Below, piece by piece: positions 45,310-60,784 of a stretch of DNA of 64,000 nt (within the stretch, counting starts at the first letter, position 1; every line of letters starts with the position of its first letter). The DNA is taken from positions 3,301-67,300 of the forward strand of contig DASRJO010000105.1 in NCBI GenBank assembly GCA_035649435.1, written 5' to 3'. The stretch is from Candidatus Krumholzibacteriia bacterium. GTDB taxonomy: Bacteria; Krumholzibacteriota; Krumholzibacteriia; G020349025. The translations under genes were made by a program, and so were the position numbers. The notes under the pieces were generated by a model. That model worked only from the letters and a program-made list of their open reading frames with translations. It searched no databases and had not been told where the DNA came from.

Positions 45310-45771
45310 TCAGTCCACCGCCTGCACCACGTGATTGAAATGCACGTGTTCCTTTCGCTGAGGAATCGTGTTGTTCCAGCGTGGCTGGGCCAGCTCGGCC
45401 ATCGTCAGGTCATTGAACATGCTCTCCAGGCTCTTCTCGGCCAGTCCGAACACGTGCTTGAGATTGCAGTCGTTGCTCAACCCGCAGTGCCCGGAGCAAT
45501 CGTGCATGAGGAACGGTCCGTCGATGAGTTGGATGACGTCGTAGGCCGTGATTCGATCCGGGCTCAGCCGCAACTTGAACCCGCCGTGGTGGCCCTTCAT
45601 GGACAGCAGGATCTCGTTCTTCACCAAGTGCTGCAGGAGCCGGCTGAGCAGGAACGGCGGTGTCTGCATCTCGTTGGCGATCTCGTTGGCAGGGACGTAA
45701 CGATGACTGTCGAGGCGGGCCAGGTAGACGATGGCCCGTAGTGCGTAATCGGCGCTGCGAGAGATGATCAT
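45310..45771 (-). CDS. Rrf2-family transcriptional regulator with three clustered Cys (probable Fe-S sensor, IscR/NsrR-like)
   Basis: Start MIISRSADYALRAIVYLA has AAGGAGG upstream. The wHTH reads ANEIANEMQTPPFLLSRLLQHLVKNEIL. The Cys cluster is HDCSGHCGLSNDC. Confidence 0.85.
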   Translation of the reverse strand: MIISRSADYALRAIVYLARLDSHRYVPANEIANEMQTPPFLLSRLLQHLVKNEILLSMKGHHGGFKLRLSPDRITAYDVIQLIDGPFLMHDCSGHCGLSNDCNLKHVFGLAEKSLESMFNDLTMAELAQPRWNNTIPQRKEHVHFNHVVQAVD

Positions 45772-45828
45772 GGGGCCCCTCCTTCTCTTCTCCCTCTCGT
45801 GCGTGATGGGGCAATTCGATCGTCTGCC

Positions 45829-45840
45829 CTTTACGTAAAG
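45829..45840. promoter_or_regulatory. Perfect 12-bp palindrome CTTTACGTAAAG, candidate operator in the Rrf2 / hemerythrin divergent region
   Basis: Read directly and self-complementary. It lies about 58 nt upstream of the Rrf2 start and about 209 nt upstream of the hemerythrin start. Confidence 0.4.
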
Positions 45841-46048
45841 CCAGGAACGTGCCGGTCTTACGACTTCAACGTCCGATTCCAACTGTTGATTCGTCATCTA
45901 TTTGGGGGCGTGGCGTCGCGGTCGGCCGAAATCGCGTGTGTTTCCAAAGGAAGCAGTGAAGCCGCGCGATCCAATGCGGCTGCCTCGGGTGCTTGACGTG
46001 CGAACATTTCTGCCACACGTTCCGGGTGAGTCCATCGGAGGAAGGGAA

Positions 46049-46534
46049 ATGAAACTACAGGATCCCATCCACCTTCTCAGAGAGGAGCACGACACCACGC
46101 TCGCCGAGTTGGAGCGCATGGAGCTCGCGGTCGCCGATCTCAATGGCGCACGCCGGGCGCAGGCCCTGCAGACGCTGCAGAAGGGCTTGAAGTTCCTCGA
46201 CACAGCCGTTCGTGCCCACGGCGAACGCGAAGAGCAATTGCTCTATCCCGTGCTCGGACGCCATGTCCCGAAGCAGACCGTGGACGTCATGCTCGAAGAG
46301 CACAAGGAACTGTGGTGGGAGATGGATCTGCTCGAGACCGCATTGCGCCGGCACGATCCGCCGCACCAAGAGGTCCGTTGGCATGCGATCGCGCTGATCG
46401 ACCTCTTGCGACGGCACATCGACAAAGAGAACAACGTCATCTTTCTCATGACGGCGCAGATGTTGTCGGAGCAGGAGTACAGGGATCTGGCGGAAGCGTT
46501 GACGAAGATGCACGAGGCAGCTCGAGAGCAGTAG
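46049..46534 (+). CDS. Hemerythrin (HHE cation-binding) domain protein
   Basis: LREEHD, H.EREEQLLYPVL, LEEHKELW and RHIDKENNVIF are typical His/Glu ligand spacings of hemerythrin-like domains. A GGAGGAAGGG tract lies upstream of the ATG. Confidence 0.8.
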   Translation: MKLQDPIHLLREEHDTTLAELERMELAVADLNGARRAQALQTLQKGLKFLDTAVRAHGEREEQLLYPVLGRHVPKQTVDVMLEEHKELWWEMDLLETALRRHDPPHQEVRWHAIALIDLLRRHIDKENNVIFLMTAQMLSEQEYRDLAEALTKMHEAAREQ

Positions 46535-46551
46535 AGCAAAAACGCTTGCGC

Positions 46552-46590
46552 AAACCGGCGGCGTCTGAGCCCACGCCGCCGCCGGTTTTT
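46552..46590 (+). terminator. Rho-independent terminator after hemerythrin gene
   Basis: A 12-bp stem pairs 46552-46563 with 46577-46588 (AAACCGGCGGCG / CGCCGCCGGTTT) around a 13-nt loop and runs into TTTTT. Confidence 0.7.
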
Positions 46591-46717
46591 GTGGCCGGTG
46601 GCCCTGGCCGGGGTGGCGACCGCCCGGCCCGTGTTTGGTACCATGGGCGGCCCGCGTCGCGGCCACCACCGGCGGGGAATGCGCCTCGTCACGAGGCATG
46701 CGAAGCGTCAGGAGTCG

Positions 46718-48205
46718 ATGCCGCTCTATTTCCACTTGTTGAACGACAAGGAAATCGACCGCCTCCAGGTGGTCCTGCGTGTCATTCGCGACAACCGTGA
46801 GGGAGTCCTGGATCGTTGGTACGAGCTGTATACCTTGCACTTCGCCAACGACCGCACGTTCTCCGAAATCGAGTTCAAGACGGTCTTCGGCCGCGACATC
46901 GACGTCGTGATCGAAACGCTCCTCGAGCACGACATCGTCGCCTTGGCGCAAGGGGTGCGGCGCATCGGGGACCAGCTCTTCGAGCGTGGCGTGCCGTTCG
47001 AGGAGATCATCGCTTCGTTGCACCTATTCGAGGAAAGCTGCGCCATTTTCTTTCGCCGCAACCTCTCGGTGCTCGCCAAGGGCCCAGACATCTTTCTCGT
47101 CTTCGACAAGTTGTCGCACGTGCGCATGATTCTGATCGCCGAGGCCTATTTCGGCAGTCACGACGTCAGGCACCAAGTGCGGACGCGAAGCCTCGAGCGC
47201 GATCTCCAGCAGCTCGATCCCGAGGCGACGCGGCGCCAGAGTTTCCATGGCCTGATCGGCGCGAGCCCGGTGATGCGCCGGGTGTACGAGCGCGTGCAAG
47301 CGGCCGCACCCGGCGGCGCCTCGATCCTGATCACGGGCGAGAGCGGCACGGGCAAGGAGGTGCTGGCGCGCGCCATTCACGAAGTCGGTTCCCCCGCGTC
47401 GGCGCCGTTCATCGCGGTGAATTGCGCCGCGTTGCCGCGCGAGCTGATCGAGAGCGAGCTGTTCGGGCATCGCAAGGGTTCCTTCAGCGGCGCCACCGGC
47501 GAATCCCTCGGACTGGTGCGCGCAGCCGAGGGCGGGACGCTGCTGCTCGACGAGATCACCGAAATGCCGCTCGAGACTCAGGCCAAGTTGCTGCGTGCCC
47601 TGCAGGAGCGCGTCGTGCGCCCAGTGGGAGCCACGGCCGAGATTCCCGTGAGCGTGCGCTTCATCGCCTCGACCAACCGGCCGATCGCCGAGGCCATCGC
47701 CGAAGGCAAGCTGCGCGAGGATCTCTATTACCGGCTCAAGGTGCACACGATCGAGCTGCCGCCTCTGCGGGAGCGCCTGGCCGATCTGTCGCTGCTGGTG
47801 GAGCACTGCATCGCGCTGTTCAACCGGCGCTATCCCCGCCTGGTGAAGGGCATCGAGGGCGAGGCGATTCAGGCGCTGCGAGGTTACAGCTGGCCCGGGA
47901 ACGTGCGCGAGCTGATGAATGCCATCGAGGTGGCGTTCGCGTACGGCCGCACCGACAGCATCCGCCTGCAGGATCTGCCGGCCGAAGTCTGCGGGCGACG
48001 GGAACCGCTTCCCGTACCCAACGGCGATGTGTTCGATGCCCTGTCGCCCATTCCGACGTTCGAAGAGTCAGAGAAGCTCCTGCTCGAACGGGCACTGGAT
48101 GCGACCAGCGGCAACAAACTGCGCGCGGCCAAGATGCTCGGCATCTCACGCAAGCAGCTCTACGCCAAGATCAAGAAGTACGCGATCGAGCTGGCCGCGG
48201 ACTGA
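46718..48205 (+). CDS. Sigma-54-dependent transcriptional activator (bEBP) with non-receiver helical sensor domain, AAA+ core and Fis-type HTH
   Basis: Walker A GESGTGKE and Walker B GGTLLLDEI are present. The sigma-54 contact loop reads ELFGHRKGSFSGA, a variant of GAFTGA. WPGNVRELMN is present, and the C-terminal HTH is NKLRAAKMLGISRKQLYAKIKKY. The N-terminal about 190 aa is all-helical and looks RsbR/non-heme-globin-like by eye (unverified). Confidence 0.9.
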   Translation: MPLYFHLLNDKEIDRLQVVLRVIRDNREGVLDRWYELYTLHFANDRTFSEIEFKTVFGRDIDVVIETLLEHDIVALAQGVRRIGDQLFERGVPFEEIIASLHLFEESCAIFFRRNLSVLAKGPDIFLVFDKLSHVRMILIAEAYFGSHDVRHQVRTRSLERDLQQLDPEATRRQSFHGLIGASPVMRRVYERVQAAAPGGASILITGESGTGKEVLARAIHEVGSPASAPFIAVNCAALPRELIESELFGHRKGSFSGATGESLGLVRAAEGGTLLLDEITEMPLETQAKLLRALQERVVRPVGATAEIPVSVRFIASTNRPIAEAIAEGKLREDLYYRLKVHTIELPPLRERLADLSLLVEHCIALFNRRYPRLVKGIEGEAIQALRGYSWPGNVRELMNAIEVAFAYGRTDSIRLQDLPAEVCGRREPLPVPNGDVFDALSPIPTFEESEKLLLERALDATSGNKLRAAKMLGISRKQLYAKIKKYAIELAAD

Positions 48206-48465
48206 TGCGGCCGCGCTCCTCGCCTCCCGCGCAGATGCGGGCGCTGAAGACTTCTCGTTGAGCCCCGGCATCGGAAGCTCTCCTCGACGTGGATCCTGCG
48301 TCCACCGCCCTTGTGAACGAAGTCGTTTGAGTTTGGCTCCCCTCGTCACATCGCTTTGCTCTCGGCCCCGCGGATGCCCCTTTTGGAGTCAGAAGAGGTT
48401 TGTCGGCATACTCGGTGCGCTGCCGTAACGCGCTGTCACTGATCTGTTTACGTCAACGCGCGCAC

Positions 48466-48481
48466 GGGCATGCTCTTCGCT
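48466..48481 (+). promoter_or_regulatory. Candidate sigma-54 (-24/-12) promoter upstream of the pseudo-receiver/cytochrome operon
   Basis: GGGCAT-GCTCT-TCGCT has the invariant GG (48467-48468) and GC (48479-48480) at the correct 12-nt offset. It is about 95 nt upstream of ATG 48576. A second, weaker site is CGGCAT-ACTCG-GTGCG at 48404-48419. Confidence 0.35.
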
Positions 48482-48575
48482 ATTCCCGAGGCGAGTCACA
48501 CGGGTTCGCGACGACAAGATGGAATCGCCCGCCGCACGCAGGAGAGATCCTCGACGGACGCAGAGAAGAGCCGAC

Positions 48576-49004
48576 ATGCTCACACCATTTCGAGAAGGAA
48601 CCGTCCTCGTGCTGACGGAGAGCGAACAGCTGGCGGGCATCGTCGCGCACGCCATCGAGAGCCTCGGGTCGAGCGGCCCGCGGCTCAGCACCGTGCGAAC
48701 TCTCGCGGATTGTCTCGTGGCCTTGCGGCTGTTGTCTCCCTGCATCGTCATCGTCGATGACACGGGGCTCGCGCCGGTGGCCGCGGAGGCGCTGAGCGAG
48801 ATGCACGCCGCCCGGTCTGGAACGCCGATCGTGTACCTGACGTCACAGCACACGCTGGACCTCGAGCGCGAGATTCGCCAGCGCGGCGTGTTGTTCTACG
48901 TGCAGTTGCCCGACACCGCCCAGCAGTTGGACGTCGTTCTCGGTCAACTGCTGGCCCGACTGGTGCGCGAAACTCCGGCGCGCGGCGCACCACGGGTCCA
49001 TTGA
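48576..49004 (+). CDS. Stand-alone receiver-like (pseudo-REC) protein
   Basis: It has a CheY-like beta/alpha periodicity (TVLVLTESE, CIVIVDDTG, PIVYLTSQ, VLFYVQLP). However the N-terminal acidic pair reads TE and the conserved Lys position reads L, so phosphorylation competence is doubtful. Confidence 0.5.
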   Translation: MLTPFREGTVLVLTESEQLAGIVAHAIESLGSSGPRLSTVRTLADCLVALRLLSPCIVIVDDTGLAPVAAEALSEMHAARSGTPIVYLTSQHTLDLEREIRQRGVLFYVQLPDTAQQLDVVLGQLLARLVRETPARGAPRVH

Positions 49005-49108: not shown

Positions 49109-50809
49109 ATGCCGAGAACCACTGCCAGCTTCGCGGCGGCCATCGCCGCACTCCTTCTCGTCAGCGGCTGCGGAGATGACGAAGTCGTGCAGGTCCAACC
49201 AGACCAGGCCATTCAAGTGGTCGTGCAAACTGCGCCCGAGTCCCTCGATACCGGCGGGCGAACGAGCATCCAAGTCATCGTGCAACGCGCTCCCACAGGT
49301 GCCGATCTTCGCTACGGCTGGCTGGCCGACGCCGGCACCTTCGCCGATGCAACGACCGACAGTACGACCTGGACCGCACCCGACAATCCCGGCGTCTATG
49401 GACTCTCGGTGATCGTGACCGATGGCGACAACGTCGCGATCGCGCAGAAGAACGTCGCGGTCGCGACCTACATGCCGGCGGACGATCCCTTCTACAAAGG
49501 AGCGACCAGCTGTTCCGTGTGCCACAACGGCGGGTCCGGCGGCACACAGTGGAGCACCTGGTCGGTGTCGGCGCACGCGAGCGCGATCGAGTCGTTGCAA
49601 GAGATCGGAATGGACAGCAATCCATCCTGCTTGAAATGCCACACCGTCGGCAGCTACGGCCTCAATGCCGACGCGGCGCTCGACAACGGTGGCTACGACG
49701 AAACCGCGGTGCCGCGCCTGGCCGGTGTGCAGTGCGAGAACTGCCACGGACCCGGCAGCCAGCATCCCAGCCCCAACTTCACGTCCGTCGACGTCACCAT
49801 GGATGCATCGCTCTGCGGGCAGTGCCACACCGATGCGCACCATCCCACCTACGACGAGTGGCAGACCTCGGCGCACGCCGCCGGCGCGACGTGGACGTCG
49901 TCGTCACCCCCGGGACTGCGCGCGAGCTGTTCCAAGTGCCACAACGGCATGGTTTCGGCGGCGTATCTCGATGATCCGCAGAATTTCGTCCCGCCGACCG
50001 TGAACCCGACGCAGCTCGTGCGTCACACCTGCGCCGTTTGCCACGATGCGCACGGCAACGACAACCCGGGGAGCTTGCGCGATGCATCCGTGACCGACGT
50101 GTGGCTGCCCAACAACGTGCTGGTCGAGGAAGCAGGCGCCGGACGACTGTGCATCTCGTGCCATAACGGCCGGCGCACGGAGACCGACGTGCTCGGGCAG
50201 ATCAACAACGGGTCGAGCAACTTCGGCCCGCATCACTCGATCCAGGGCGATGCGCTCAAGGGCGTCAACGCTTACCAGACCTTGGCCCCCGGCTTCCCGT
50301 GGTCGAGCAGCAAGCACATTCTGGTCGAAGATGCCTGTGTCGCCTGCCACACGCACCCACATGAAGGGGATCCGGAGGCCGGCATCCCGAACTTCATGGG
50401 CCACGATTTCCTCCCGACGACGGAAGCGTGCGTGCGCTGCCATGGCCCGCTCACGGATTTCGAGGACATCTTCGCCAAGGCCGACTTCGACGGCAACGGC
50501 AGCATCGAGGGCGTTCAAGTCGAGATCCGCGGCCTGCTGGATCTCCTGCAGCAGACCATCATCGACAAGAGCCGCAACGATTCGGTGAGGATGGATTTCA
50601 TCAACAACTTCATCCCGACGCTCGGCGACACCACGAAGAGCACGCGCGTGCAACGCGAGGCCGGTTACAACTGGGCCTACGTCGACTACGACGGCTCGAG
50701 CGGCGTGCACAACACCACCTACTCCGTGCAGCTCCTGCAGCAGAGCATCCTGTACCTCGAACCGTCGGCGCTGCCGCAAGCCGCCTTCGTCCTGCGGGAG
50801 GACATGTGA
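49109..50809 (+). CDS. Nine-heme c-type cytochrome lipoprotein with Ig-like N-terminal domain
   Basis: Lipobox LLVSG-C. The nine CxxCH motifs are CSVCH, CLKCH, CENCH, CGQCH, CSKCH, CAVCH, CISCH, CVACH and CVRCH. Contexts such as CENCHGPGSQH and W..SAHA are typical of multiheme c554-type families. Confidence 0.85.
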   Translation: MPRTTASFAAAIAALLLVSGCGDDEVVQVQPDQAIQVVVQTAPESLDTGGRTSIQVIVQRAPTGADLRYGWLADAGTFADATTDSTTWTAPDNPGVYGLSVIVTDGDNVAIAQKNVAVATYMPADDPFYKGATSCSVCHNGGSGGTQWSTWSVSAHASAIESLQEIGMDSNPSCLKCHTVGSYGLNADAALDNGGYDETAVPRLAGVQCENCHGPGSQHPSPNFTSVDVTMDASLCGQCHTDAHHPTYDEWQTSAHAAGATWTSSSPPGLRASCSKCHNGMVSAAYLDDPQNFVPPTVNPTQLVRHTCAVCHDAHGNDNPGSLRDASVTDVWLPNNVLVEEAGAGRLCISCHNGRRTETDVLGQINNGSSNFGPHHSIQGDALKGVNAYQTLAPGFPWSSSKHILVEDACVACHTHPHEGDPEAGIPNFMGHDFLPTTEACVRCHGPLTDFEDIFAKADFDGNGSIEGVQVEIRGLLDLLQQTIIDKSRNDSVRMDFINNFIPTLGDTTKSTRVQREAGYNWAYVDYDGSSGVHNTTYSVQLLQQSILYLEPSALPQAAFVLREDM

Positions 50810-52185
50810 CGCGTGGGTGGAGAACCCCGCGCGCGCTCGCCGCACACTGGATCACTGGCTGCGCGGCGACGGCACGCTGGGTCACCTGGGTCGCGGTCTG
50901 CATCTCGATCCCATGTTTCCCCCGGATGGCCGGCGGCCAGGAAGCGAGTGCTGTGGGCACGGGGTGGACCTCGCCCACGACTTGGTGGGTGGCGAGCCGC
51001 ACCACCGGCTACTGGTACGAGAGCATCGATCCCAGCACCGGTGTCGTGCTCGCGCGCGCCAACTTTCTGCAGAACGTCGACGCGTCCGTATCACGCCTGT
51101 GGGATGACCACCTCGACCTACGCTTCGCCGGTCGCTATGCCGATGCCGATCTCTACCCGATCCAGCCGACGAACGAGACGCGTTGGACCGTGGGCTATGC
51201 GCAGGTGCGCGCGAGCTCCTGGCAGGTGCGCGCGCGCCTCGGACGTTTGTTCGTCCAGGAAGGTCCGGCGCATCACACGCTCGACGGCGCTTGGGTCAAG
51301 CTCAATCCGGCGCGCCGCGTCGAGGTCCGAGCCTGGGGTGGGTCGCAGGCGCCGGCCGATCTCGAGTTCGACATTCGCAGCATCGAGACGAACTTGGCGT
51401 TCGGGGGCCGAGTTCTCGCCACGGTGACGCCCGCGGTGCGCCTCGGCGTCTCGGGTGCGCAATGGGAGGAAGGCGGTGAGGTTGCCGCACGACCCGTGGG
51501 GGCGGACGCCACTTGGTTCCCGCTCGCGGGACTGCGCGCGTTCGCGCGCGCGGAGTACGAGACCGATGCCGAGCGCTGGCAACGCATCGAGCTGCTCGGC
51601 GACTACAGCCCGGGGCGTGGCTCGCCGTGGCTCTTGCGCGCGCAATACCTGGACCGCACGCCGTGGATCGAGCAGACGAGCTACTTCGCGCGCTTCGCCG
51701 CCCTCGAGCGCGTTCGGCTCATGCGTGCTTCGGCGCGCTATCAGCTCGCGAACGGTCTCGGGGGCGAGATCGAGTCCTTCACCAGCGTGATCGACACGCG
51801 CACCTCTGCGCGTCTGGGTGGCGCGGTGCTCTTCCGCTACGGACGCGTCGGCTACTCGGCACTCTTCGGTGATTCGGGCGAAGAGAGCCAGTGGTTCGGG
51901 GATGTCGACGTGCCGGTGCGTCCGTGGGTACGGCTGGCCGCCGGCGCGGTCATCGCGACCTACGCGCTGTTCGAGGACGCACCAAACGACATGGAGCGCG
52001 ACCTGGTCACACTCTTCGGGCGCGCCACGCTCGACCTGATGCCCGGACTGCGCGGTGTGCTCGAAGTGCAAGGATTGAAGAACCCGGACTTCGACGAGGA
52101 CGCACGAATCCTGTTCGGTCTCGACCTGTTCGCCGGACGTGGGGCGTCGAAGTTCGGCCTGGGACGGGGAGGGTGGTTGCAGTGA
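50806..52185 (+). CDS. Predicted outer-membrane beta-barrel (porin-like component of a porin-cytochrome conduit)
   Basis: GTG 50806 overlaps the upstream stop (ATGTGA). It is 459 aa with no heme motifs. It has repeated amphipathic strands of about 10 residues with aromatic girdles (WTVGYAQVRA, VEVRAWGG, LAFGGRVLATV, LRAFARAEYE, WLLRAQYL, GAVLFRYGRVGYSALFG, ARILFGLDLFA). The topology is not computed. Confidence 0.5.
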   Translation: MTRGWRTPRALAAHWITGCAATARWVTWVAVCISIPCFPRMAGGQEASAVGTGWTSPTTWWVASRTTGYWYESIDPSTGVVLARANFLQNVDASVSRLWDDHLDLRFAGRYADADLYPIQPTNETRWTVGYAQVRASSWQVRARLGRLFVQEGPAHHTLDGAWVKLNPARRVEVRAWGGSQAPADLEFDIRSIETNLAFGGRVLATVTPAVRLGVSGAQWEEGGEVAARPVGADATWFPLAGLRAFARAEYETDAERWQRIELLGDYSPGRGSPWLLRAQYLDRTPWIEQTSYFARFAALERVRLMRASARYQLANGLGGEIESFTSVIDTRTSARLGGAVLFRYGRVGYSALFGDSGEESQWFGDVDVPVRPWVRLAAGAVIATYALFEDAPNDMERDLVTLFGRATLDLMPGLRGVLEVQGLKNPDFDEDARILFGLDLFAGRGASKFGLGRGGWLQ

Positions 52186-53072
52186 AGAGACGAACCCTCC
52201 CTCGTGTCGCCATCACAGGAGGATGCCTGGCCGGTGCCGCGATCTTGCTCGTGGTCACTTTGCAGGCGCGCGATGCGGAGCCGGCGTTGAAGCCCATGCA
52301 TGCTGTACACGCGACCAACGGACTCGAGTGCAGCGTTTGCCACGAGGCGGCGGCAACATCGCTGCGCGGGACAGATTTGCTCTTGCCGCAGAAGGAAACG
52401 TGCGCTCAGTGTCACGACGTGAACGATACGGAGCAGTGCGCGAAGTGTCACGCCCAAGCCGAGGAACCGGCTGGATACGCTCCCCGCACCGTCGTGGCGC
52501 AGAATTTCCCACACCAGCTGCACGTGGAGAGCGGGATGGAGTGCGCCACGTGTCACACTGGCGAGGGACTGACCGAGCCGGTGCTGCCGGACAAGGCCTC
52601 GTGCCGCGCTTGTCACACCACCGCCTCGCAGCAGAGCGATTGCCGTGTGTGTCACGCTGCCGCCGAGGAGCTGAGGCCTGCCAGTCACGGACCGCAATTC
52701 CTGCAGCTGCATGCGCTCCAGGCGGCATGGGATCAGTCGCGTTGTGCCAATTGCCACACCGAGACGGATTGCCAGGAATGTCACAACGGCGACAACATTC
52801 GACCACGGTCGCACCCGTTGAACTTTGCCTTCGACCACGTGCTCGCAGCGCGAGGGAAGGAAATCTCCTGCAGCACCTGTCACGAATCGGAGTTCTGTTC
52901 GGACTGTCATGCGGCGCAACGAGTTCTGCCCACCGATCACTCGCAGGCCAGCTGGCTGCTCGCAGACGGCGGTCGTCATGCGGAGGCGGGGCGGTTCGAC
53001 ATGGAAAGCTGCGCCGCGTGCCACGAATCCGGCAGCACCGCACCCACGTGCGCGCGCTGTCACGGGAGATGA
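52182..53072 (+). CDS. Dodecaheme c-type cytochrome (c3/c7-like), periplasmic or membrane-anchored
   Basis: GTG 52182 overlaps the upstream stop (GTGA). The twelve CxxCH motifs are CSVCH, CAQCH, CAKCH, CATCH, CRACH, CRVCH, CANCH, CQECH, CSTCH, CSDCH, CAACH and CARCH, all within 296 aa. There is a single N-terminal hydrophobic segment CLAGAAILLVVTL. Confidence 0.85.
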   Translation: MKRRTLPRVAITGGCLAGAAILLVVTLQARDAEPALKPMHAVHATNGLECSVCHEAAATSLRGTDLLLPQKETCAQCHDVNDTEQCAKCHAQAEEPAGYAPRTVVAQNFPHQLHVESGMECATCHTGEGLTEPVLPDKASCRACHTTASQQSDCRVCHAAAEELRPASHGPQFLQLHALQAAWDQSRCANCHTETDCQECHNGDNIRPRSHPLNFAFDHVLAARGKEISCSTCHESEFCSDCHAAQRVLPTDHSQASWLLADGGRHAEAGRFDMESCAACHESGSTAPTCARCHGR

Positions 53073-53626
53073 CGATGCGAAGCGTCCGCCGGCCGCACGC
53101 GTTCTGGGCACTGATCTTGGTGCTCGGCTGTTCCGAACCGGCACCGCTGCAGGACGATCTGCGCGCTCATCCTCCCGCCTGGACCGATGCGGGGAGCGGC
53201 GATTTTCACGGTGCGCGAGTGGCGCGCGAGGGGACGAATCTCTGCACCAGCTGCCACGGATCGGCCTTGCGCGGCGATCTCGTCGTGCCCGGCTGCTACG
53301 ATTGCCACGACGGCCCTGGCGGCCACCCGCCGTACTGGAAGGACCCGGCCGAACCATTCCATGGCACCGAGGTCGAGCACCAGGGCCCGACGGATTGCGC
53401 GACATGTCATGGAGCGACGTATCAGGGCGGCTGGAGCGGAGTGAGCTGCTACACGTGTCATGCCGGCGGGCCGAGCGGTCATCCGGACGGCTGGCTCGAC
53501 AAGCGTTTCCACACCTTCCATGGTCTCGAGGTGTCGGTGCACGGTGACGCCGATTGCCGCCGCTGCCACGGCAACGATCTCCTGGGCGGCACGAGCGGCG
53601 TCGCTTGCAGCGACTGCCATCAATAG
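53069..53626 (+). CDS. Hexaheme c-type cytochrome lipoprotein
   Basis: ATGA overlap with the upstream stop. Lipobox LILVLG-C. The six CxxCH motifs are CTSCH, CYDCH, CATCH, CYTCH, CRRCH and CSDCH. Confidence 0.8.
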   Translation: MTMRSVRRPHAFWALILVLGCSEPAPLQDDLRAHPPAWTDAGSGDFHGARVAREGTNLCTSCHGSALRGDLVVPGCYDCHDGPGGHPPYWKDPAEPFHGTEVEHQGPTDCATCHGATYQGGWSGVSCYTCHAGGPSGHPDGWLDKRFHTFHGLEVSVHGDADCRRCHGNDLLGGTSGVACSDCHQ

Positions 53627-55293: not shown

Positions 55294-55355
55294 TTCTCTC
55301 GACAGCACCGCTCCCACATTGAGCTTGTTTGCTGTGCATGCGAATGGCCGGTATC

Positions 55356-55370
55356 TGGCGCGTGTCTTGC
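55356..55370 (+). promoter_or_regulatory. Sigma-54 (-24/-12) promoter, near-consensus
   Basis: TGGCGC-GTGTC-TTGC compared with the consensus TGGCAC-N5-TTGC. GG is at 55357-55358 and GC at 55369-55370. It is about 64 nt upstream of the GTG 55434 start of the GcvH-like/FeS/NrfD operon. Confidence 0.6.
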
Positions 55371-55433
55371 GATGCAACTCATTGCGGCGGTCGATGGTTC
55401 CGCCGGGGACAATCAGGCGACGAGGTGAGTCTT

Positions 55434-56102
55434 GTGACAGCGATTCTGGTCGTCTGCACCATCGCACTGTTCTTGATCGTGGATTCGGTGCGAACACGCA
55501 GACGCAGTCCGGTCGTGGCGCCTTGCGTCCCGCGGCGACTCGAAGAGCTGGGTGGCGATTTCCCCGTCCCGGCGGGGGTCTTCGTCGGCGCCGGCCACAC
55601 CTGGGCGAGCCTCGAGACCAATGGCTCGGTCCGCGTCGGCGTGGACGCCTTTGCCTCGCGTCTGCTTGGGCGGCTCGACCGTCTCGAGGCGGCCGCAGCC
55701 GGTGCCGAGCTGGCGCACGAGGATGCCGCCTTCGTGCTGCATCAAGGAACGAAGAGCGTCGCCTTCGCGTCGCCGCTCACCGGGACGGTGACGGACGTGA
55801 ACACCGCGCTATTGCACGAACCGGAACGTCTGCGCGACGCGCCCTACGACAGCGGCTGGCTGCTGCGCATCCGGCCGCACCATCTGGCGCGCGAGCTGCA
55901 TCGACTGCGCATCGGCGACGATGCACAGGGATGGCTGCAGCATGAAGCCGCACGTCTCGGCGATTTCCTCGCGCGCGCAGTCCCGAGCCGTATCGCCGGT
56001 GCGACGCTCCAAGATGGCGGGCTCGCCGTGACGGGAGTGATGGAGATGCTCGACGCCGGGGCATGGGAGCGTTTCGAATCCGAATTCCTCGCTGGCCGCT
56101 GA
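55434..56102 (+). CDS. Membrane-anchored glycine-cleavage-H-like (lipoyl/biotinyl-domain fold) protein
   Basis: GTG 55434 has GAGGTGA 5 nt upstream. An N-terminal TM AILVVCTIALFLIVDSV is followed by RTRRRS. The body aligns by eye to GcvH (GHTW..LE.NG.VRVGVD.FA..LLG, SPLTGTVTDVN, PYDSGWLLRIR). Confidence 0.6.
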   Translation: MTAILVVCTIALFLIVDSVRTRRRSPVVAPCVPRRLEELGGDFPVPAGVFVGAGHTWASLETNGSVRVGVDAFASRLLGRLDRLEAAAAGAELAHEDAAFVLHQGTKSVAFASPLTGTVTDVNTALLHEPERLRDAPYDSGWLLRIRPHHLARELHRLRIGDDAQGWLQHEAARLGDFLARAVPSRIAGATLQDGGLAVTGVMEMLDAGAWERFESEFLAGR

Positions 56103-56163
56103 AGGACCGTGCGGCGTCGAGAATGATTGGGGCGAGCGGTCGACTCGAAGGAGGAGGACGTCG

Positions 56164-56949
56164 ATGACTGCGGCGCTGCTCATCGACACCACGCGCTGCA
56201 TCGGATGCAACGCCTGTGCGGATGCCTGCAAGGAGGCCAATCACCTGCCGGGTGAAGTAGAGACGACGCTCACGGCCCGCACTTGGACGGTAGTCGAGGC
56301 GAAGGGGGACGTGTACGTCCGGCGCATGTGCATGCATTGCGAGGAGCCGACGTGCGCTTCGGTGTGTCCGGTCGGGGCGTTGCACAAGACTGCCGAAGGA
56401 CCCGTGGCCTACGAGGAGTCGCGTTGCATCGGCTGCCGCTACTGCATGGTGGCCTGCCCGTTCGGCGTCCCGAAGTACGAATGGGACAAGACGCTGCCGC
56501 GAGTACAGAAGTGCATCGGCTGCATCGGCCGCCTGCGCGCCGGCCAGAGCACGGCGTGCGCCACCGCCTGCCCGACCGGGGCGACCACATTCGGCGAGCG
56601 CGAGGAACTGCTGGCGGAAGCGCGCCGGCGGATTCGCGAATCTCCCGATTCCTATGTGCACCGCATCTACGGTGAACGCGAGGTCGGGGGCACGCACGTG
56701 CTGATGCTGGCGGCGGTTCCGTTCGAGCAGCTCGGGTTCCCGGTCGACCTGCCTGAGAGAGCGATGCCGTCTTACACCTGGGAAGCACTGTCCAAGATCC
56801 CGAACGTGGTCTCGGTGGGGGGCGTCGGCTTGCTCGGGATCTGGTGGATCATCCACCGCCGCATGCAGCTCGAGCGCTCGGAAGAAGTCGATGTCGATGC
56901 CGGGCCGCATTTGGCACAGGTCACGAGTCGAGACGGAGGCCGGTCATGA
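56164..56949 (+). CDS. Four-cluster [4Fe-4S] ferredoxin-type subunit (HybA/NrfC/PsrB-like) with C-terminal TM anchor, no Tat/Sec leader
   Basis: The Cys groups are CIGCNACADAC, CMHCEEPTCASVCP, CIGCRYCMVACP and CIGCIG...CATACP. A C-terminal TM reads VVSVGGVGLLGIWWIIH. The first cluster starts at residue 12, and no more upstream start codon is offered for this ORF in the track. Confidence 0.85.
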   Translation: MTAALLIDTTRCIGCNACADACKEANHLPGEVETTLTARTWTVVEAKGDVYVRRMCMHCEEPTCASVCPVGALHKTAEGPVAYEESRCIGCRYCMVACPFGVPKYEWDKTLPRVQKCIGCIGRLRAGQSTACATACPTGATTFGEREELLAEARRRIRESPDSYVHRIYGEREVGGTHVLMLAAVPFEQLGFPVDLPERAMPSYTWEALSKIPNVVSVGGVGLLGIWWIIHRRMQLERSEEVDVDAGPHLAQVTSRDGGRS

Positions 56950-58136
56950 AGCCAAGCATCGCGATCCCGCGCATCACGTTCTGGAGGGGCGTGTTCGGGC
57001 TCATCGTCGCAGCCGGTCTGGTGGCGACCTGGGTGCGCTTCACTCGGGGATTGGGGGCGAGCACGAATCTCTCCGACCGGTTTCCGTGGGGGCTGTGGAT
57101 TGGTTTCGACGTGCTCTGCGGCGTCGGGCTGGCGGCGGGAGGCTTCGCCATCACCGCGATGGTGCACATCTTCCACATCGAGCGCTACCAGCCGATCCTG
57201 CGGCCGACGATCTTGACCGCTTTCCTCGGCTACTTGCTCGTGATCATGGCGCTGCTCTTCGACCTCGGGCGGCCGTATCGCATCTGGCATCCGCTGGTCA
57301 TGCGCAACCCGCACTCGGTGATGTTCGAGGTCGCCTGGTGCGTGATGCTCTACACCACGGTGCTGGCGCTCGAGTTCAGCCCCATCGTGTTCGAGAAGCT
57401 GCGCCTGCAACGGCCGCGGCGCATCCTGCGCACCATTTCGGTACCGCTCGTGATCGTGGGGGTGTTGCTGTCGACGTTGCACCAATCCTCGCTCGGATCA
57501 CTGTTCCTGATCATGCCGCAGAAGCTGCACCCACTGTGGTACACGCCGATGCTGCCGGTGTTCTTCTTCATCTCCGCGCTCGGTGTCGGCTTCGCCATGG
57601 TCATCTTCGAGTCCTATCTGAGTGGGAAGGCGTTCGGCAAGCAGCTCGAGCTGCCGTTGCTCTCCCATCTGGCGAGTGTCGTCGCCGTGGTGCAGCTCGT
57701 CGCCCTCGTGTGGCGGCTGGAGGACCTGGCGTTCCGTGGCGCCTGGGAGCACCTCGGGGCCCAGACGTTGCCGGCTGCCACCTTCGCCGCCGAGATGATC
57801 GTGGGTGCCCTCGTCCCCATCGTGCTCTTCGCCGTGCCGCGCTGGCGCCAGAATCCGAATACCTTGTTCCTGGGCGCGGCCTCGGTCGTCTCGGGTTTCG
57901 TGCTCAATCGCTTGAACGTCGGCATCACCGGGCTCGAGCTGGGCACCGGCCAACGTTACTTCCCGAGCTGGATGGAAGTCGCGGTCACCATGAGCATCGT
58001 GGCGATTGGTTTCGCGCTGTTCGGTGTCGCCTGCAGGATCCTGCCGATCTTCGAATCACCCAAGGTGCAGATCCGGCGGCTGCGACGCACTCGACTCGCC
58101 CCCGCGCCGGCACCACCGGTGTCGGCGCAGGCATGA
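56946..58136 (+). CDS. NrfD/PsrC/HybB-family integral membrane quinone-interacting subunit
   Basis: ATGA overlap with the FeS gene. It is 396 aa with about 10 TM helices. FPWGLWIGFDVLCGVGLAAGGF and YRIWHPL are typical of the NrfD/HybB family. Confidence 0.85.
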   Translation: MKPSIAIPRITFWRGVFGLIVAAGLVATWVRFTRGLGASTNLSDRFPWGLWIGFDVLCGVGLAAGGFAITAMVHIFHIERYQPILRPTILTAFLGYLLVIMALLFDLGRPYRIWHPLVMRNPHSVMFEVAWCVMLYTTVLALEFSPIVFEKLRLQRPRRILRTISVPLVIVGVLLSTLHQSSLGSLFLIMPQKLHPLWYTPMLPVFFFISALGVGFAMVIFESYLSGKAFGKQLELPLLSHLASVVAVVQLVALVWRLEDLAFRGAWEHLGAQTLPAATFAAEMIVGALVPIVLFAVPRWRQNPNTLFLGAASVVSGFVLNRLNVGITGLELGTGQRYFPSWMEVAVTMSIVAIGFALFGVACRILPIFESPKVQIRRLRRTRLAPAPAPPVSAQA

Positions 58137-59450: not shown

Positions 59451-59563
59451 GTTCGACTCCTTCGGGGCGGTTCGATCACTCTGTGACTGCATACGTTTTT
59501 CGATTCCCGTTCCGAGCCAGATTCGCGCGCGAGGAACCACGACGTCGCGGTCGAGGTTCAGGC

Positions 59564-60133: not shown

Positions 60134-60149
60134 CTTGTCTCCTTCGGCG

Positions 60150-60704: not shown

Positions 60705-60759
60705 GGCCTCCGGATCCGTCCCGGAGCGTCCCCGCTCCGGTTCTGAAGACACGCCAGAA

Positions 60760-60784
60760 GACGAGAGGTTACATTTCAAATTCC
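60760..60784 (-). promoter_or_regulatory. Candidate autoregulatory ECF-type promoter (GGAAT-N16-CGTC)
   Basis: The minus strand reads GGAATTTGAAATGTAACCTCTCGTCTT. The -35 GGAAT is at 60784-60780 and the -10 CGTC at 60763-60760. It is about 55 nt upstream of the sigma start. Confidence 0.45.

What the first reader, a model, noticed from the sequence alone, without database searches (positions are those of the whole stretch)
49109..53626. Ext/Pcc-like porin-cytochrome conduit: four translationally coupled genes with 27 heme-binding motifs plus a beta-barrel
Seen in sequence: four same-strand ORFs are joined by 4-nt start/stop overlaps (ATGTGA at 50804-50809, GTGA at 52182-52185, ATGA at 53069-53072). 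ORF1 has a lipobox (LLVSG-C), an Ig-like domain and 9 CxxCH. ORF2 is 459 aa, heme-free and made of amphipathic strands. ORF3 is 296 aa with 12 CxxCH and one N-terminal hydrophobic segment. ORF4 has a lipobox (LVLG-C) and 6 CxxCH. Established knowledge: Geobacter OmaB/OmbB/OmcB and ExtABCD (periplasmic dodecaheme, porin-like protein, two lipoprotein cytochromes) and Shewanella MtrCAB move electrons across the outer membrane. Inference: this is an outer-membrane electron conduit for extracellular electron transfer, such as metal, mineral or electrode respiration or uptake. The gene order (lipoprotein cytochrome, barrel, periplasmic cytochrome, lipoprotein cytochrome) and heme counts (9/12/6) do not match the described clusters as I remember them. 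The genomic background looks FCB-like rather than Desulfuromonadales or Gammaproteobacteria.
Basis: partly seen in the sequence, partly recalled or inferred. Interest (0 to 1): 0.8.

Follow-up and report, generated by a model that had tools for sequence, protein, structure and literature searches.

The report
Outer-membrane cytochrome electron conduit operon
Four coupled genes encode a 22-strand outer-membrane barrel, a 12-haem periplasmic cytochrome and two haem lipoproteins, which most likely carry respiratory electrons across the outer membrane of an uncultured FCB-group bacterium; this is a new variant of a known kind of system, in phyla where it has not been described.

Summary
Four same-strand, overlapping genes at 49109-53626 carry 9, 0, 12 and 6 CxxCH motifs. 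That is 27 of the 31 such motifs found in all six frames of the 64-kb window. ORF2 models as a 22-strand barrel, and its structural matches are all outer-membrane barrels. ORF1 and ORF4 have lipoboxes. ORF3 and the ORF2 orthologues have ordinary Sec signals.

The 9/0/12/6 cluster recurs in about 15 MAG and metagenome loci labelled Eisenbacteria, Krumholzibacteria or Gemmatimonadetes. No nitrite, sulfite or hydroxylamine reductase lies beside it. Instead it sits next to varying quinol modules: ImcH-like, CbcL-like, Rieske/cytochrome b, or HmcBC-like.

The barrel is a distant homologue of Desulfuromonadales barrels that sit in ExtBC/ExtEF-like clusters. ORF1 is a collinear homologue of OcwA, the nonahaem surface reductase of Gram-positive Thermincola.

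Verdict: a porin-cytochrome conduit, a new variant of a known kind. The direction of electron flow and the substrate are inferred, not shown.

The parts
46589..48205 (+). Sigma-54-dependent enhancer-binding protein. It has an unassigned ~190-aa N-terminal domain, then AAA+ and HTH_8 domains. It is the candidate regulator of the conduit operon.
   Evidence: Pfam Sigma54_activat E 1e-64, AAA_lid_14 and HTH_8. The same order, Rrf2 - EBP - receiver-like - ORF1-4, is kept in ~70%-identity relatives L020, L021 and L022.
48466..48481 (+). Sigma-54-type -24/-12 promoter-like element, GGGCATGCTCTTCGCT (GG-N10-GC), upstream of the receiver-like gene.
   Evidence: It is conserved as GGGCACGCTCCTCGCT in L020 and L022, inside an otherwise diverged intergenic region. 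It has 3 mismatches to TGGCAC-N5-TTGC, so the 2-mismatch scan missed it, and that scan was itself no better than chance. This is an inference, not a mapped promoter.
48519..49004 (+). Small receiver-like protein of 161 aa, or 142 aa if it starts at ATG 48576. It is probably the first gene of the operon.
   Evidence: No Pfam or NCBIfam hit here. The orthologue in L020-L022 has a weak Response_reg hit and the same position directly upstream of ORF1. It is 90% identical in L001.
49109..50809 (+). ORF1: a lipoprotein with an N-terminal PKD/Ig-like domain, an OcwA-type nonahaem c-type cytochrome domain and a C-terminal helical bundle. It is the proposed cell-surface electron-exchange cap.
   Evidence: 9 CxxCH and lipobox LLVSG-C. 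AlphaFold pLDDT 86.6, beta-sandwich at 36-119 and helices at 469-550. Foldseek matches PKD/Ig domains. The family profile matches OcwA (6i5b) at E 1.8e-20 and cytochrome c554 at 5.5e-8. There is a collinear HH-x-x-Y-x-EW motif. Orthologues keep an acidic C-G-D/E-D/E-D/E stretch after the lipid Cys.
50806..52185 (+). ORF2: a haem-free 22-strand outer-membrane beta-barrel, the sheath of the conduit.
   Evidence: AlphaFold pLDDT 74, with 22 strands after an N-terminal helix. All top Foldseek PDB hits are outer-membrane barrels. No Pfam or NCBIfam family, including MtrB_PioB. Orthologues carry clear Sec signal peptides. The profile reaches Desulfuromonadales conduit barrels at 45-48 bits.
52182..53072 (+). 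ORF3: a periplasmic dodecahaem c-type cytochrome, the proposed haem wire inserted into the barrel.
   Evidence: 12 CxxCH in 296 aa, a Sec-type N-terminal segment and no lipobox. Best PDB sequence match is GSU1996 (3ov0), E 3.6e-10 over residues 30-159, followed by ACIII ActA. A 286-300-aa 12-haem protein follows the barrel in every orthologous locus and in the second-tier locus L026.
53069..53626 (+). ORF4: a small hexahaem lipoprotein built from three 2-haem repeats. It is the second lipoprotein cytochrome of the conduit. An alternative start is at 53075.
   Evidence: 6 CxxCH and lipobox LVLG-C. Orthologues all have a lipobox followed by C-[SAV]-[ED]-x-R. It is ~30% identical to the N-terminal part of the lipoprotein cytochrome that follows the Desulfuromonadales barrel. 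The gene caller's start is at 53075.
55329..58136 (+). Possibly associated membrane module: a TM-anchored GcvH-like protein (55329-56102), an HmcB/HybA-like 4Fe-4S protein (56164-56949) and an HmcC/HybB-like NrfD-type membrane protein (56943-58136).
   Evidence: NCBIfam HmcB 250 bits, HybA 218 bits, HmcC 347 bits, HybB 306 bits, all below the equivalog cut-offs. The trio lies next to or near the conduit in L001, L003, L004 and L012. The FeS protein lacks a Tat signal in all loci, so its orientation is unclear. The link to the conduit is an inference.

Best explanation

ORF2 forms a 22-strand barrel in the outer membrane. ORF3, a Sec-exported rod of 12 c-type haems, is proposed to sit inside the barrel and bridge the periplasm to the cell surface. 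Two lipoprotein cytochromes complete the complex. ORF1 is an OcwA-type nonahaem with a PKD/Ig domain, most likely surface-exposed. ORF4 is a hexahaem whose side of the membrane is undetermined. They would pass electrons between the wire and an extracellular partner such as an Fe/Mn mineral, an electrode, humic material or a partner cell.

Electrons most likely flow outward from the quinol pool. In relatives the inner-membrane module is ImcH-like, CbcL-like or Rieske/cytochrome b. In this genome it may be the neighbouring HmcBC-like module.

Expression is probably driven by a sigma-54 promoter under the upstream enhancer-binding protein.

Shown: the gene structure, haem motifs, export signals, barrel fold, conserved synteny and homologies. 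Inferred: complex formation, surface exposure, direction of flow and substrate.
For: - Haem motifs: 27 in-frame CxxCH, against about 0.1 expected.
- Barrel: AlphaFold gives 22 strands, and Foldseek hits are only outer-membrane barrels.
- Export signals: lipoboxes on ORF1 and ORF4 and Sec signals on ORF2 and ORF3 orthologues are conserved in more than 10 loci.
- Synteny: the 9/0/12/6 cluster is conserved in about 15 loci at 40-86% barrel identity.
- Core pair: barrel plus a ~290-aa 12-haem protein persists even in a second-tier relative, L026 at 149 bits. A still more distant locus, L024 at 56 bits, has a barrel plus a 14-haem protein.
- Remote homology: the barrel profile hits Desulfuromonadales barrels that are followed by a 5-haem lipoprotein and a larger lipoprotein cytochrome.
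- Neighbours in relatives: ImcH-like (NapC/NirT domain, ~485 aa), CbcL-like (11 haems plus a cytochrome b561/FdnI domain), and Rieske with cytochrome b and a 9-haem cytochrome. No catalytic reductase is adjacent.
- ORF1 is homologous to OcwA, the experimentally characterised surface terminal reductase of Thermincola (PMC6703420).
- All three operational criteria for a conduit in PMC6148476 are met.
Against: - No experiment or complex model is available. Insertion of ORF3 into ORF2 is argued by analogy with MtrAB.
- Surface exposure of ORF1 rests on an acidic post-Cys motif that resembles the Bacteroidota lipoprotein export signal. I recalled that signal from memory and did not test it for these phyla.
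- ORF2's own N-terminus in the window is a poor signal peptide, although orthologues have good ones.
- The window has no ImcH or CbcL homologue and no other multihaem gene in 64 kb.
- The neighbouring HmcB-like FeS protein lacks a Tat signal, so the inner-membrane donor in this organism is unidentified.
- OcwA-type haems can catalyse nitrite and hydroxylamine reduction in vitro, so ORF1 may be more than a wire.
- The direction of electron flow cannot be read from sequence.
Confidence: 0.78

Rival explanations
1. The complex is the same, but it runs inward. It would take electrons from extracellular Fe(II), reduced minerals, cathodes or a syntrophic partner and deliver them to the quinone pool or to periplasmic acceptors. 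PioAB and MtoAB work this way.
For: Conduits are known to be bidirectional, and CbcL/MtoC-type modules occur in both Fe(III) reducers and Fe(II) oxidisers (PMC6295460). MAGs of the same phyla from a hydrothermal chimney also carry Cyc2-type iron oxidase genes (PMC9769843). Nothing in the sequence fixes the direction.
Against: ImcH-like genes flank the cluster in many relatives, and the 2018 survey found ImcH homologues only in Fe(III) reducers. ORF1's closest characterised relative, OcwA, is a terminal reductase. No carbon-fixation or reverse-electron-flow genes were seen in the 64-kb window, but only selected ORFs outside 43-58 kb were scanned.
Confidence: 0.15
2. ORF1 is primarily a catalytic NrfA-superfamily enzyme. 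Possible substrates are nitrite, hydroxylamine, NO or a sulfur oxyanion. It would act at the cell surface or in the periplasm. The barrel, ORF3 and ORF4 would supply it with electrons or admit the substrate, so the system would be an oxyanion-reducing module rather than a mineral or electrode conduit. The role of ExtI in selenite and tellurite reduction is a precedent.
For: ORF1 aligns collinearly with OcwA, including the HH pair that sits over a pentacoordinate haem. It has a second conserved HH at 375-376 (PMC9250108). OcwA reduces nitrite and hydroxylamine in vitro. Some homologues carry weak PF02335 (NrfA) hits, and NCBI names one of them nitrite reductase c552. ExtHIJKL shows that barrel-cytochrome clusters can serve oxyanion reduction.
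Against: There is no CxxCK haem, and there are 9 haems rather than 5. NrfA matches are marginal, E 0.02-0.9 and only the C-terminal helices. OcwA's nitrite turnover is very slow, kcat about 1 per min. The PKD domain and lipoprotein anchor, together with a dedicated barrel and 12-haem wire, are more than a periplasmic enzyme would need. No NrfH/NrfBCD-type partner arrangement is present.
Confidence: 0.1
3. The cytochromes form a purely periplasmic electron-storage or transfer network, and ORF2 is an ordinary diffusion porin that merely shares the operon. No electrons would cross the outer membrane.
For: Foldseek's best matches are general or substrate-specific porins and ushers with low TM-scores of 0.3-0.45. 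No complex model was computed.
Against: The barrel family, including its second-tier members and its Desulfuromonadales relatives, was found only inside cytochrome clusters in every locus inspected. In the window and in close relatives it is translationally coupled to the cytochromes on both sides. A 22-strand barrel is larger than the 16- to 18-strand diffusion porins. Two lipoprotein cytochromes are conserved with it.
Confidence: 0.05

Closest known systems
Geobacter sulfurreducens Ext conduits: ExtABCD (GSU2645-2642) and ExtEFG (GSU2726-2724)
   Same: - Same parts list: one periplasmic dodecahaem, one haem-free outer-membrane barrel and small lipoprotein cytochromes, two in ExtABCD as here.
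- The genes are clustered and co-transcribed.
- They meet the same three operational criteria (PMC6148476).
- The ORF2 profile detects Desulfuromonadales barrels at 45-48 bits. Those barrels are followed by a 158-aa pentahaem lipoprotein and a 340-410-aa lipoprotein cytochrome, which is an ExtBC(D)/ExtEF-like layout.
- ORF4 is ~30% identical to the start of that larger lipoprotein cytochrome.
   Different: - Gene order is lipoprotein, barrel, periplasmic, lipoprotein, against A(periplasmic)-B(barrel)-C-D.
- Haem counts are 9/0/12/6, against 12/0/5/12 (ExtABCD) or 0/5/12 (ExtEFG).
- The barrel is modelled with 22 strands, against 18 or 21 predicted.
- The large lipoprotein is OcwA-type with a PKD domain, which no Ext cluster has.
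- The hosts are FCB candidate phyla, not Desulfuromonadales.
- Identity to the Desulfuromonadales barrels is only 21-22%.
- I could not obtain the GSU2644 or GSU2726 sequences, so a direct comparison was not made.
OcwA (TherJR_2595, PDB 6I5B), the cell-surface nonahaem terminal reductase of Thermincola potens, and its relative OmhA
   Same: - ORF1 has nine CxxCH.
- It shows collinear similarity to OcwA at E 1.8e-20, with a c554-like N-terminal module and a C-terminal helical bundle carrying the DGS-GVHN motif.
- It has the conserved HH-x-x-Y-x-EW motif, which corresponds to the distal histidines of a pentacoordinate haem, and a second HH pair (PMC6703420; PMC9250108).
   Different: - OcwA is a cell-wall-associated protein of a Gram-positive bacterium, with no barrel partner.
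- ORF1 is a lipoprotein of a diderm. It carries an extra N-terminal PKD/Ig domain and is encoded directly upstream of a barrel.
- Sequence similarity is patchy.
- The haem coordination of ORF1 is unknown.
MtrCAB, MtoAB and PioAB conduits of Shewanella and Fe(II) oxidisers
   Same: The proposed working principle is the same: a multihaem wire sheathed by an outer-membrane barrel, with a lipoprotein cytochrome on the surface.
   Different: - ORF2 has no MtrB_PioB (Pfam) or other family hit at E up to 0.1.
- ORF2 has 22 strands, against the 26 I recall for MtrB.
- The wire has 12 haems rather than 10.
- The cap is not of the MtrC/OmcA fold.
- There is only generic haem-motif similarity to MtrA (6r2q chain A, E 1.3e-4).
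Pcc clusters (OmaB/OmbB/OmcB type) surveyed across six phyla, including Ignavibacterium album
   Same: The cluster logic is the same, and so is the association with further cytochromes of the inner membrane and periplasm (PMC4245776).
   Different: - The Pcc periplasmic cytochrome has 8 haems and the outer one 12.
- The surveyed papers do not report clusters from Eisenbacteria or Krumholzibacteriota.

Membership tests
Porin-cytochrome outer-membrane electron conduit (operational definition of Jimenez Otero et al. 2018, PMC6148476) | A multihaem periplasmic c-type cytochrome encoded in the cluster | tested here: met
   ORF3 has 12 CxxCH, a Sec-type N-terminus and no lipobox. This is conserved in all orthologous loci.
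Porin-cytochrome outer-membrane electron conduit (operational definition of Jimenez Otero et al. 2018, PMC6148476) | An integral outer-membrane protein made of transmembrane beta-strands | tested here: met
   The ORF2 AlphaFold model has 22 strands. Foldseek PDB hits are exclusively outer-membrane barrels at probability 1.0. Orthologues have signal peptides.
Porin-cytochrome outer-membrane electron conduit (operational definition of Jimenez Otero et al. 2018, PMC6148476) | [quoted passage not shown] | tested here: met
   ORF1 (9 haems) and ORF4 (6 haems) both have lipoboxes, conserved in orthologues. Sorting to the outer membrane or the surface was not tested.
Porin-cytochrome outer-membrane electron conduit (operational definition of Jimenez Otero et al. 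2018, PMC6148476) | [quoted passage not shown] | not testable with these tools
   This needs proteoliposome, genetic or structural work.
ExtABCD / ExtEFG orthologues (Geobacter) | Sequence orthology to GSU2645-2642 or GSU2726-2724 (the source paper used >=40% identity over 75% of length) | tested here: inconclusive
The only proxy is the ExtBC/EF-like Desulfuromonadales clusters, at 21-22% barrel identity and 45-48 bits to the profile. That is far below an orthologue threshold.
ExtABCD / ExtEFG orthologues (Geobacter) | Gene order and haem counts (ExtA 12 periplasmic, ExtB barrel, ExtC 5 lipoprotein, ExtD 12 lipoprotein; ExtE barrel, ExtF 5 lipoprotein, ExtG 12 periplasmic) | tested here: not met
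   Here the order is lipoprotein-9, barrel, periplasmic-12, lipoprotein-6 (compared). Only the periplasmic dodecahaem count agrees.
MtrAB / PioAB / MtoAB family | Barrel belongs to the MtrB/PioB family and the wire is an MtrA-type decahaem | tested here: not met
   ORF2 has no Pfam or NCBIfam hit at E up to 0.1. ORF3 has 12 haems and no DmsE/MtrA-family hit. ORF1 has only a 31-bit hit to TIGR03508, against a cut-off of 192.
OcwA/OmhA clade of the NrfA-c554 multihaem superfamily (for ORF1) | Nine CxxCH haems, with a c554-like N-terminal module, a pentahaem C-terminal module and a C-terminal helical bundle | tested here: met
   9 CxxCH. Profile matches to 6i5b at E 1.8e-20 in collinear segments and to c554 at E 5.5e-8. 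Helices at 469-550 in the model.
OcwA/OmhA clade of the NrfA-c554 multihaem superfamily (for ORF1) | Conserved non-bonding distal His pairs beside the two pentacoordinate haems (OcwA H281/H282 and H380/H381) | tested here: met
   ORF1 H244-H245 aligns with the OcwA HH at SEQRES 252-253 within HH-x-x-Y-x-EW. H375 is invariant and H376 is conserved in >=90% of the 64 aligned homologues. The second pair was not aligned directly to OcwA.
OcwA/OmhA clade of the NrfA-c554 multihaem superfamily (for ORF1) | Two high-spin pentacoordinate haems, and iron-oxide or electrode reductase activity | not testable with these tools
   This needs spectroscopy and enzymology.
NrfA ammonia-forming nitrite reductase (for ORF1) | Pentahaem protein with a CxxCK catalytic haem | tested here: not met
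   There is no CxxCK and there are 9 CxxCH. NrfA structures match only at E 0.02-0.9, over the C-terminal helices.
c7-type multidomain dodecahaem cytochromes (GSU1996 family) (for ORF3) | Four tandem trihaem c7-like domains | tested here: inconclusive
   The 3ov0 match (E 3.6e-10) covers only residues 30-159, which hold the first six haems. Their motif spacing is c7-like, by my recollection of c7. The last six haems have a different spacing, in pairs 9 residues apart.

The most novel reading that the evidence does not exclude
This may be a previously undescribed, widely distributed class of outer-membrane conduit in FCB candidate phyla (Eisenbacteria, Krumholzibacteriota, Gemmatimonadota relatives).

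In it, an OcwA-type nonahaem cytochrome would be lipid-anchored and displayed on a diderm surface. Until now that type is known only as the cell-surface reductase of Gram-positive thermophiles, and it may carry two open-coordination catalytic haems. It would be wired through a new 22-strand barrel and dodecahaem core.

That core is plugged, genome by genome, into at least four different quinol modules: ImcH-like, CbcL-like, Rieske/cytochrome b and HmcBC-like. If the reading is right, these abundant subsurface and soil lineages are unrecognised extracellular electron-transfer organisms, and the surface cap might perform chemistry such as N-oxide turnover as well as mineral reduction.
Probability: 0.4. 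Interest if true: 0.7.

Novelty: new variant of a known kind. Interest (0 to 1): 0.55.

Why it matters
Trans-outer-membrane conduits have been demonstrated experimentally in only a few model Proteobacteria and Desulfuromonadales. Environmental surveys mostly search with models built from those organisms.

This cluster gives a concrete and conserved candidate pathway for uncultured FCB lineages. Relatives come from an iron-rich deep mine (DeMMO) and from a hydrothermal chimney. The ORF1 family alone has more than 700 sequence clusters.

It also links the Gram-positive OcwA-type surface reductase to a Gram-negative barrel system. That is relevant to how extracellular electron-transfer modules evolve and recombine.

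If confirmed, profiles built from these four proteins would improve detection of iron, manganese and electrode respiration in metagenomes. They would also supply a compact four-gene conduit for heterologous engineering.

Tried and rejected
1. **Direct comparison with G. sulfurreducens ExtB/ExtE.** I then tried to fish the extA-extB junction and the extA upstream region out of metagenome contigs, using published primer sequences. Both scans found nothing. NCBIfam has no model that names the Desulfuromonadales barrel or its pentahaem partner. Orthology to Ext proteins therefore stays untested.

2. **Foldseek on the ORF1 model.** It recognised only the PKD/Ig domain. The loop-rich haem domain gave no significant structural hit, so the OcwA relationship rests on sequence profiles.

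3. **Consensus sigma-54 scan of the window.** It was no better than chance, 71 matches against 70 expected. The sigma-70 and terminator scan of the operon was also uninformative. The only promoter evidence kept is the element conserved between species.

4. **MtrB/PioB, Cyc2 or any curated barrel family for ORF2.** There were no hits. The PDB sequence search with the barrel profile found nothing even at E 10.

5. **NrfA nitrite reductase reading of ORF1.** Rejected as a family assignment because there is no CxxCK and there are 9 haems. It is kept as a minor functional rival.

6. **Horizontal-island reading.** GC content and skew across the region are the same as in the rest of the window.

7. 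**Literature.** I found no paper describing this cluster in Eisenbacteria or Krumholzibacteriota. DeMMO and Southwest Indian Ridge studies list these phyla only in bulk FeGenie or Cyc2 tallies.

Full report

Yes.
- ORF1: 49109-50809, 566 aa, 9 CxxCH, N-terminus MPRTTASFAAAIAALLLVSG-C.
- ORF2: 50806-52185, GTG start, 459 aa, no haem motif, 3 Cys.
- ORF3: 52182-53072, GTG start, 296 aa, 12 CxxCH.
- ORF4: 53069-53626, 185 aa, 6 CxxCH, N-terminus ...FWALILVLG-C.

The junction sequences ATGTGA, GTGA and ATGA are present. The one soft point is the start of ORF4. A gene call on the same metagenome contig uses the next ATG, at 53075. That start has better spacing from the GGGAG upstream and gives a 2-nt gap instead of an overlap.

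The haem motifs are not chance. The whole 64-kb window has 31 CxxCH motifs in all six frames, and 27 of them lie here, all in the coding frames. Residue shuffles of the three cytochromes give 0.02-0.15 motifs on average. Each cytochrome has exactly one Cys outside a haem motif. In ORF1 and ORF4 it is the lipobox Cys, and in ORF3 it is a Cys within the signal segment. GC content (0.65) and skew match the rest of the window, so nothing suggests a recent island.

**2. What the four proteins are**

*ORF2.* It has no Pfam or NCBIfam family, and that includes MtrB_PioB. A 10-sequence alignment gave an AlphaFold model with mean pLDDT 74. The low-confidence parts are the N-terminus, two loops and the C-terminal tail. 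The model has an N-terminal helix followed by 22 beta-strands. Foldseek against the PDB returned only outer-membrane barrels: the FimD usher, MOMP, AlgE, OprD/Occ and OmpF. Probability is 1.0 but TM-scores are 0.3-0.45, as expected for a barrel with a different strand number. The window's own N-terminus is an untidy signal peptide. Orthologues have textbook Sec signals, for example LLVLLVAAGLAAAEG and VLLLVLTTAVPSFAQS.

*ORF3.* It has a basic n-region, one hydrophobic stretch and an LQA-RD cleavage-like site. There is no lipobox after the hydrophobic region. Orthologues have clean signal peptides. Its best solved relative is the G. sulfurreducens dodecahaem GSU1996 (3ov0), at E 3.6e-10 over the first six haems. 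The pentahaem ActA subunits of alternative complex III come next. With about 22 residues per haem it must be an almost bare haem chain.

*ORF1.* This is the most informative protein. A 64-sequence alignment gave a confident model (pLDDT 86.6). It has a beta-sandwich at 36-119, a loop-rich haem domain and a helical bundle at 469-550. Foldseek sees only the sandwich and matches it to PKD/Ig domains. The family profile matches PDB 6I5B at E 1.8e-20 in several collinear segments, cytochrome c554 at 5.5e-8, and NrfA C-terminal helices weakly.

6I5B is OcwA, the nonahaem cell-surface terminal reductase of the Gram-positive Thermincola potens. OcwA is described as a c554-like tetrahaem module fused to a pentahaem module and a three-helix bundle. 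ORF1 residues 241-320 align with OcwA 250-319. The alignment includes DAHHPTYDEW against NSHHLQYPEW. By numbering offset, that OcwA HH pair corresponds to H281/H282, the conserved non-bonding distal histidines over a pentacoordinate haem (PMC9250108). A second conserved HH sits at ORF1 375-376.

ORF1 is therefore an OcwA-type nonahaem that has gained a lipoprotein anchor and a PKD domain. It is not an NrfA. It has no CxxCK and it has nine haems.

*ORF4.* It is a lipoprotein built from three similar two-haem units. It is about 30% identical to the N-terminal part of the lipoprotein cytochrome encoded after the Desulfuromonadales barrels described in section 4.

**3. Conservation and neighbours**

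A scan of one genome per GTDB species with the barrel profile found 14 related loci. All are MAGs: five labelled Candidatus Eisenbacteria, one Krumholzibacteriia, one Gemmatimonadetes and seven unclassified. The scan also found two distant Desulfuromonadales/Geobacterales loci.

tblastn and ORF analysis show the order ORF1-barrel-ORF3-ORF4 with haem counts 9/0/12/6 in nearly all of them. The exceptions are L003 and L012. They lack an adjacent ORF1, and their ORF4 homologue has 8 haems. Further loci reached through ORF1 homologues show the same four genes.

Lipoboxes are conserved. ORF1 orthologues always continue C-G-D/E-D/E-D/E, for example CGDDDDD and CGDEDDD. ORF4 orthologues continue C-[SAV]-[ED]-x-R. 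The acidic stretch resembles the surface lipoprotein export signal of Bacteroidota. I recall that signal from memory and treat it as a lead only.

The barrel plus a ~290-aa dodecahaem is the invariant core. It persists in a second-tier relative, L026, which scores 149 bits to the profile and lies beside Ccm and haem-biosynthesis genes. It recurs in modified form in L024, with a barrel at 56 bits and a 14-haem protein. A full-library profile search found 443 representative proteins at E<1e-3 and 35 at E<1e-30. Named second-tier members come from Fidelibacterota and Calditrichia, which are also FCB lineages.

It is not met. The variable neighbours are instead quinol-interacting inner-membrane modules:
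- ~485-aa proteins with a NapC/NirT (NrfH-like) domain and 5-6 further haems, which is the ImcH-like architecture (L002, L003, L004, L005, L006, L007, L008, L013, L023, L024).
- ~690-aa proteins with 11 haems fused to a cytochrome b561/FdnI domain, which is the CbcL-like architecture (L005, L006, L008, L013, L024). L023 has a split version.
- A Rieske/cytochrome b pair with a 9-haem cytochrome (L025).

ImcH and CbcL are the proposed quinol oxidases of Geobacter extracellular electron transfer (PMC6295460). I assigned these proteins by architecture, not by comparison with GSU3259 or GSU0274.

The window itself has no other multihaem gene in 64 kb. About 1.7 kb downstream, past a convergent Ca2+/cation antiporter and a TPR lipoprotein, it carries three genes: a membrane-anchored GcvH-like protein, an HmcB/HybA-like FeS protein and an HmcC/HybB-like NrfD protein. 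The same trio follows the conduit directly in L003 and L004 and lies near it in L001 and L012. The FeS protein lacks a Tat signal in every locus. I therefore cannot say that it faces the periplasm, and I list it only as a possible partner.

*Regulation.* In ~70%-identity relatives (L020-L022; NCBI names one member Candidatus Krumholzibacteria) the order Rrf2 - sigma-54 activator - small receiver-like protein - ORF1-4 is kept, and so are the 4-nt overlaps. The intergenic region upstream of the receiver-like gene contains a conserved GG-N10-GC element. It reads GGGCATGCTCTTCGCT in the window (48466-48481) and GGGCACGCTCCTCGCT in the relatives. A blind consensus scan was no better than chance, so only this conservation supports a sigma-54 promoter.

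**4. Relation to known systems**

The two distant Desulfuromonadales loci, L015 and L016, and a third from the same family, L018, share one layout. It is a 437-445-aa barrel, a translationally coupled 158-aa pentahaem lipoprotein and a 340-410-aa lipoprotein cytochrome, followed by an NHL-repeat protein.

This is the layout published for ExtB-ExtC-ExtD, and, counting only the barrel and pentahaem lipoprotein, for ExtE-ExtF. ExtC and ExtF are 49% identical pentahaem lipoproteins, and extBCD sometimes occurs without extA. The ORF2 family profile scores 45-48 bits against these barrels and shares the ...LGRxFxxEG...DG... block with them. Rescaled to the size of the full library (my arithmetic), that would still be significant.

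The barrel is therefore a remote relative of a Desulfuromonadales conduit barrel family with more than 549 members. I could not retrieve GSU2644 or GSU2726 to prove that this family is ExtB or ExtE.

Against the published definitions, the window's cluster meets all three operational criteria for a conduit. It is not an Ext orthologue by gene order, haem counts or identity, and it is not of the Mtr/Pio family. Pcc clusters have been surveyed in six phyla, including Ignavibacterium. I found no paper describing this cluster or any conduit in Eisenbacteria or Krumholzibacteriota. Two environmental studies whose MAGs are among my loci (DeMMO and Southwest Indian Ridge Dive96) mention these phyla only in bulk FeGenie or Cyc2 tallies.

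**5. Mechanism, with what is shown and what is inferred**

*Shown:* four co-oriented, tightly packed genes; export and lipidation signals; the barrel fold; haem counts; conserved synteny across deep divergence; homology of the cap to a proven surface reductase; and neighbourhoods rich in quinol modules and free of catalytic reductases.

*Inferred:* ORF3 occupies the ORF2 lumen. A 22-strand barrel is the size class of TonB-dependent receptors that hold a plug domain of about 150 residues, so a haem rod should fit; that is my estimate. ORF1 is flipped to the surface and is the electron-exchange site. ORF4 bridges either ORF3 to ORF1 at the surface, or periplasmic donors to ORF3. Electrons flow outward from quinol. 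I put 0.78 on the conduit reading. Within it, I put about 0.6 on outward flow to insoluble or extracellular acceptors.

*Rivals:* the same machine running inward (0.15); a primarily catalytic role for the OcwA-like cap on soluble N or S oxyanions (0.1); and an unrelated porin with a purely periplasmic cytochrome network (0.05).

**6. Novelty and score**

The kind of system is known and known to be modular. What is new is the particular combination and its hosts: a 22-strand barrel of an uncurated family, a dodecahaem core, an OcwA-type PKD-lipoprotein cap and a hexahaem lipoprotein, in FCB candidate phyla.

I rate it a new variant of a known kind, with interest 0.55. A specialist would not be astonished that such clusters exist outside Proteobacteria. 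The OcwA link and the breadth of the family (more than 700 clusters of ORF1 homologues) would be of real interest. They also make extracellular electron transfer in these uncultured lineages directly testable.

Noticed in passing
window 55329-58136 (+); also L003 13565-17072, L004 13361-16035, L012 584-3012, L001 14745-17569: A conserved trio: a TM-anchored GcvH-like protein (relatives lack the lipoyl lysine), an HmcB/HybA-like 4Fe-4S protein with a C-terminal TM helix but no Tat signal in any locus, and an HmcC/HybB-like NrfD membrane protein. It recurs next to the conduit. Its topology and function are unclear, and I do not know of a described GcvH-NrfCD-type module.
   Followed up: partly
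window 14585-23215 (-) and 23554-26820 (-): A 2876-aa surface adhesin with 21 Big_9/cadherin-like repeats, a CBM96 and a C-terminal FlgD_ig domain. The neighbouring 1088-aa protein also ends in FlgD_ig. The pattern looks like T9SS-type cargo and fits an FCB-group host.
   Followed up: partly
window 45310-49004: A regulatory block upstream of the conduit: Rrf2 regulator (-), hemerythrin-domain protein, a sigma-54 activator with an unassigned 190-aa N-terminal sensor domain, and a small receiver-like protein with no family hit. Apart from the hemerythrin-domain gene, the block is conserved in L020-L022. In L001 about 6 kb is inserted between the activator and the receiver-like gene, including a 4-haem lipoprotein gene.
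   Followed up: partly
L023 13524-14078, L024 4751-5356 (-), L025 4659-5225, L026 8845-9390; also L001 1816-2691 (-), L003 7421-8161, L006 11947-13292 (-): Small tetrahaem genes recur beside the conduit in relatives and may encode periplasmic shuttles. Those in L023-L026 are 180-200 aa with c554-type Pfam hits. Those in L001, L003 and L006 are 207-291 aa and are known only from their haem count and a weak ORF1-like similarity. The window has none within 64 kb.
   Followed up: no
L015 13063-15774, L018 9243-11663: The Desulfuromonadales barrel/pentahaem/lipoprotein-cytochrome clusters are followed by an 800-900-aa NHL-repeat protein with Ig-like repeats. As I recall, the Desulfovibrio ferrophilus outer-membrane cytochrome clusters also contain NHL-repeat proteins. 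I did not pursue this.
   Followed up: no
window 58194-60779 (-): A 613-aa protein with no Pfam family, followed on the same strand by an anti-sigma-like ORF (59564-60133) and an ECF sigma factor (60150-60779).
   Followed up: no
L024 7074-8408 (-) and neighbours: In this locus the ORF1 homologue is separated from its barrel. It is followed by ImcH-like and CbcL-like genes. A divergent operon holds a distant barrel (56 bits), a 14-haem protein, a small lipoprotein, a c554-like protein and ResB/CcsA maturation genes. This suggests the modules are shuffled between lineages.
   Followed up: partly
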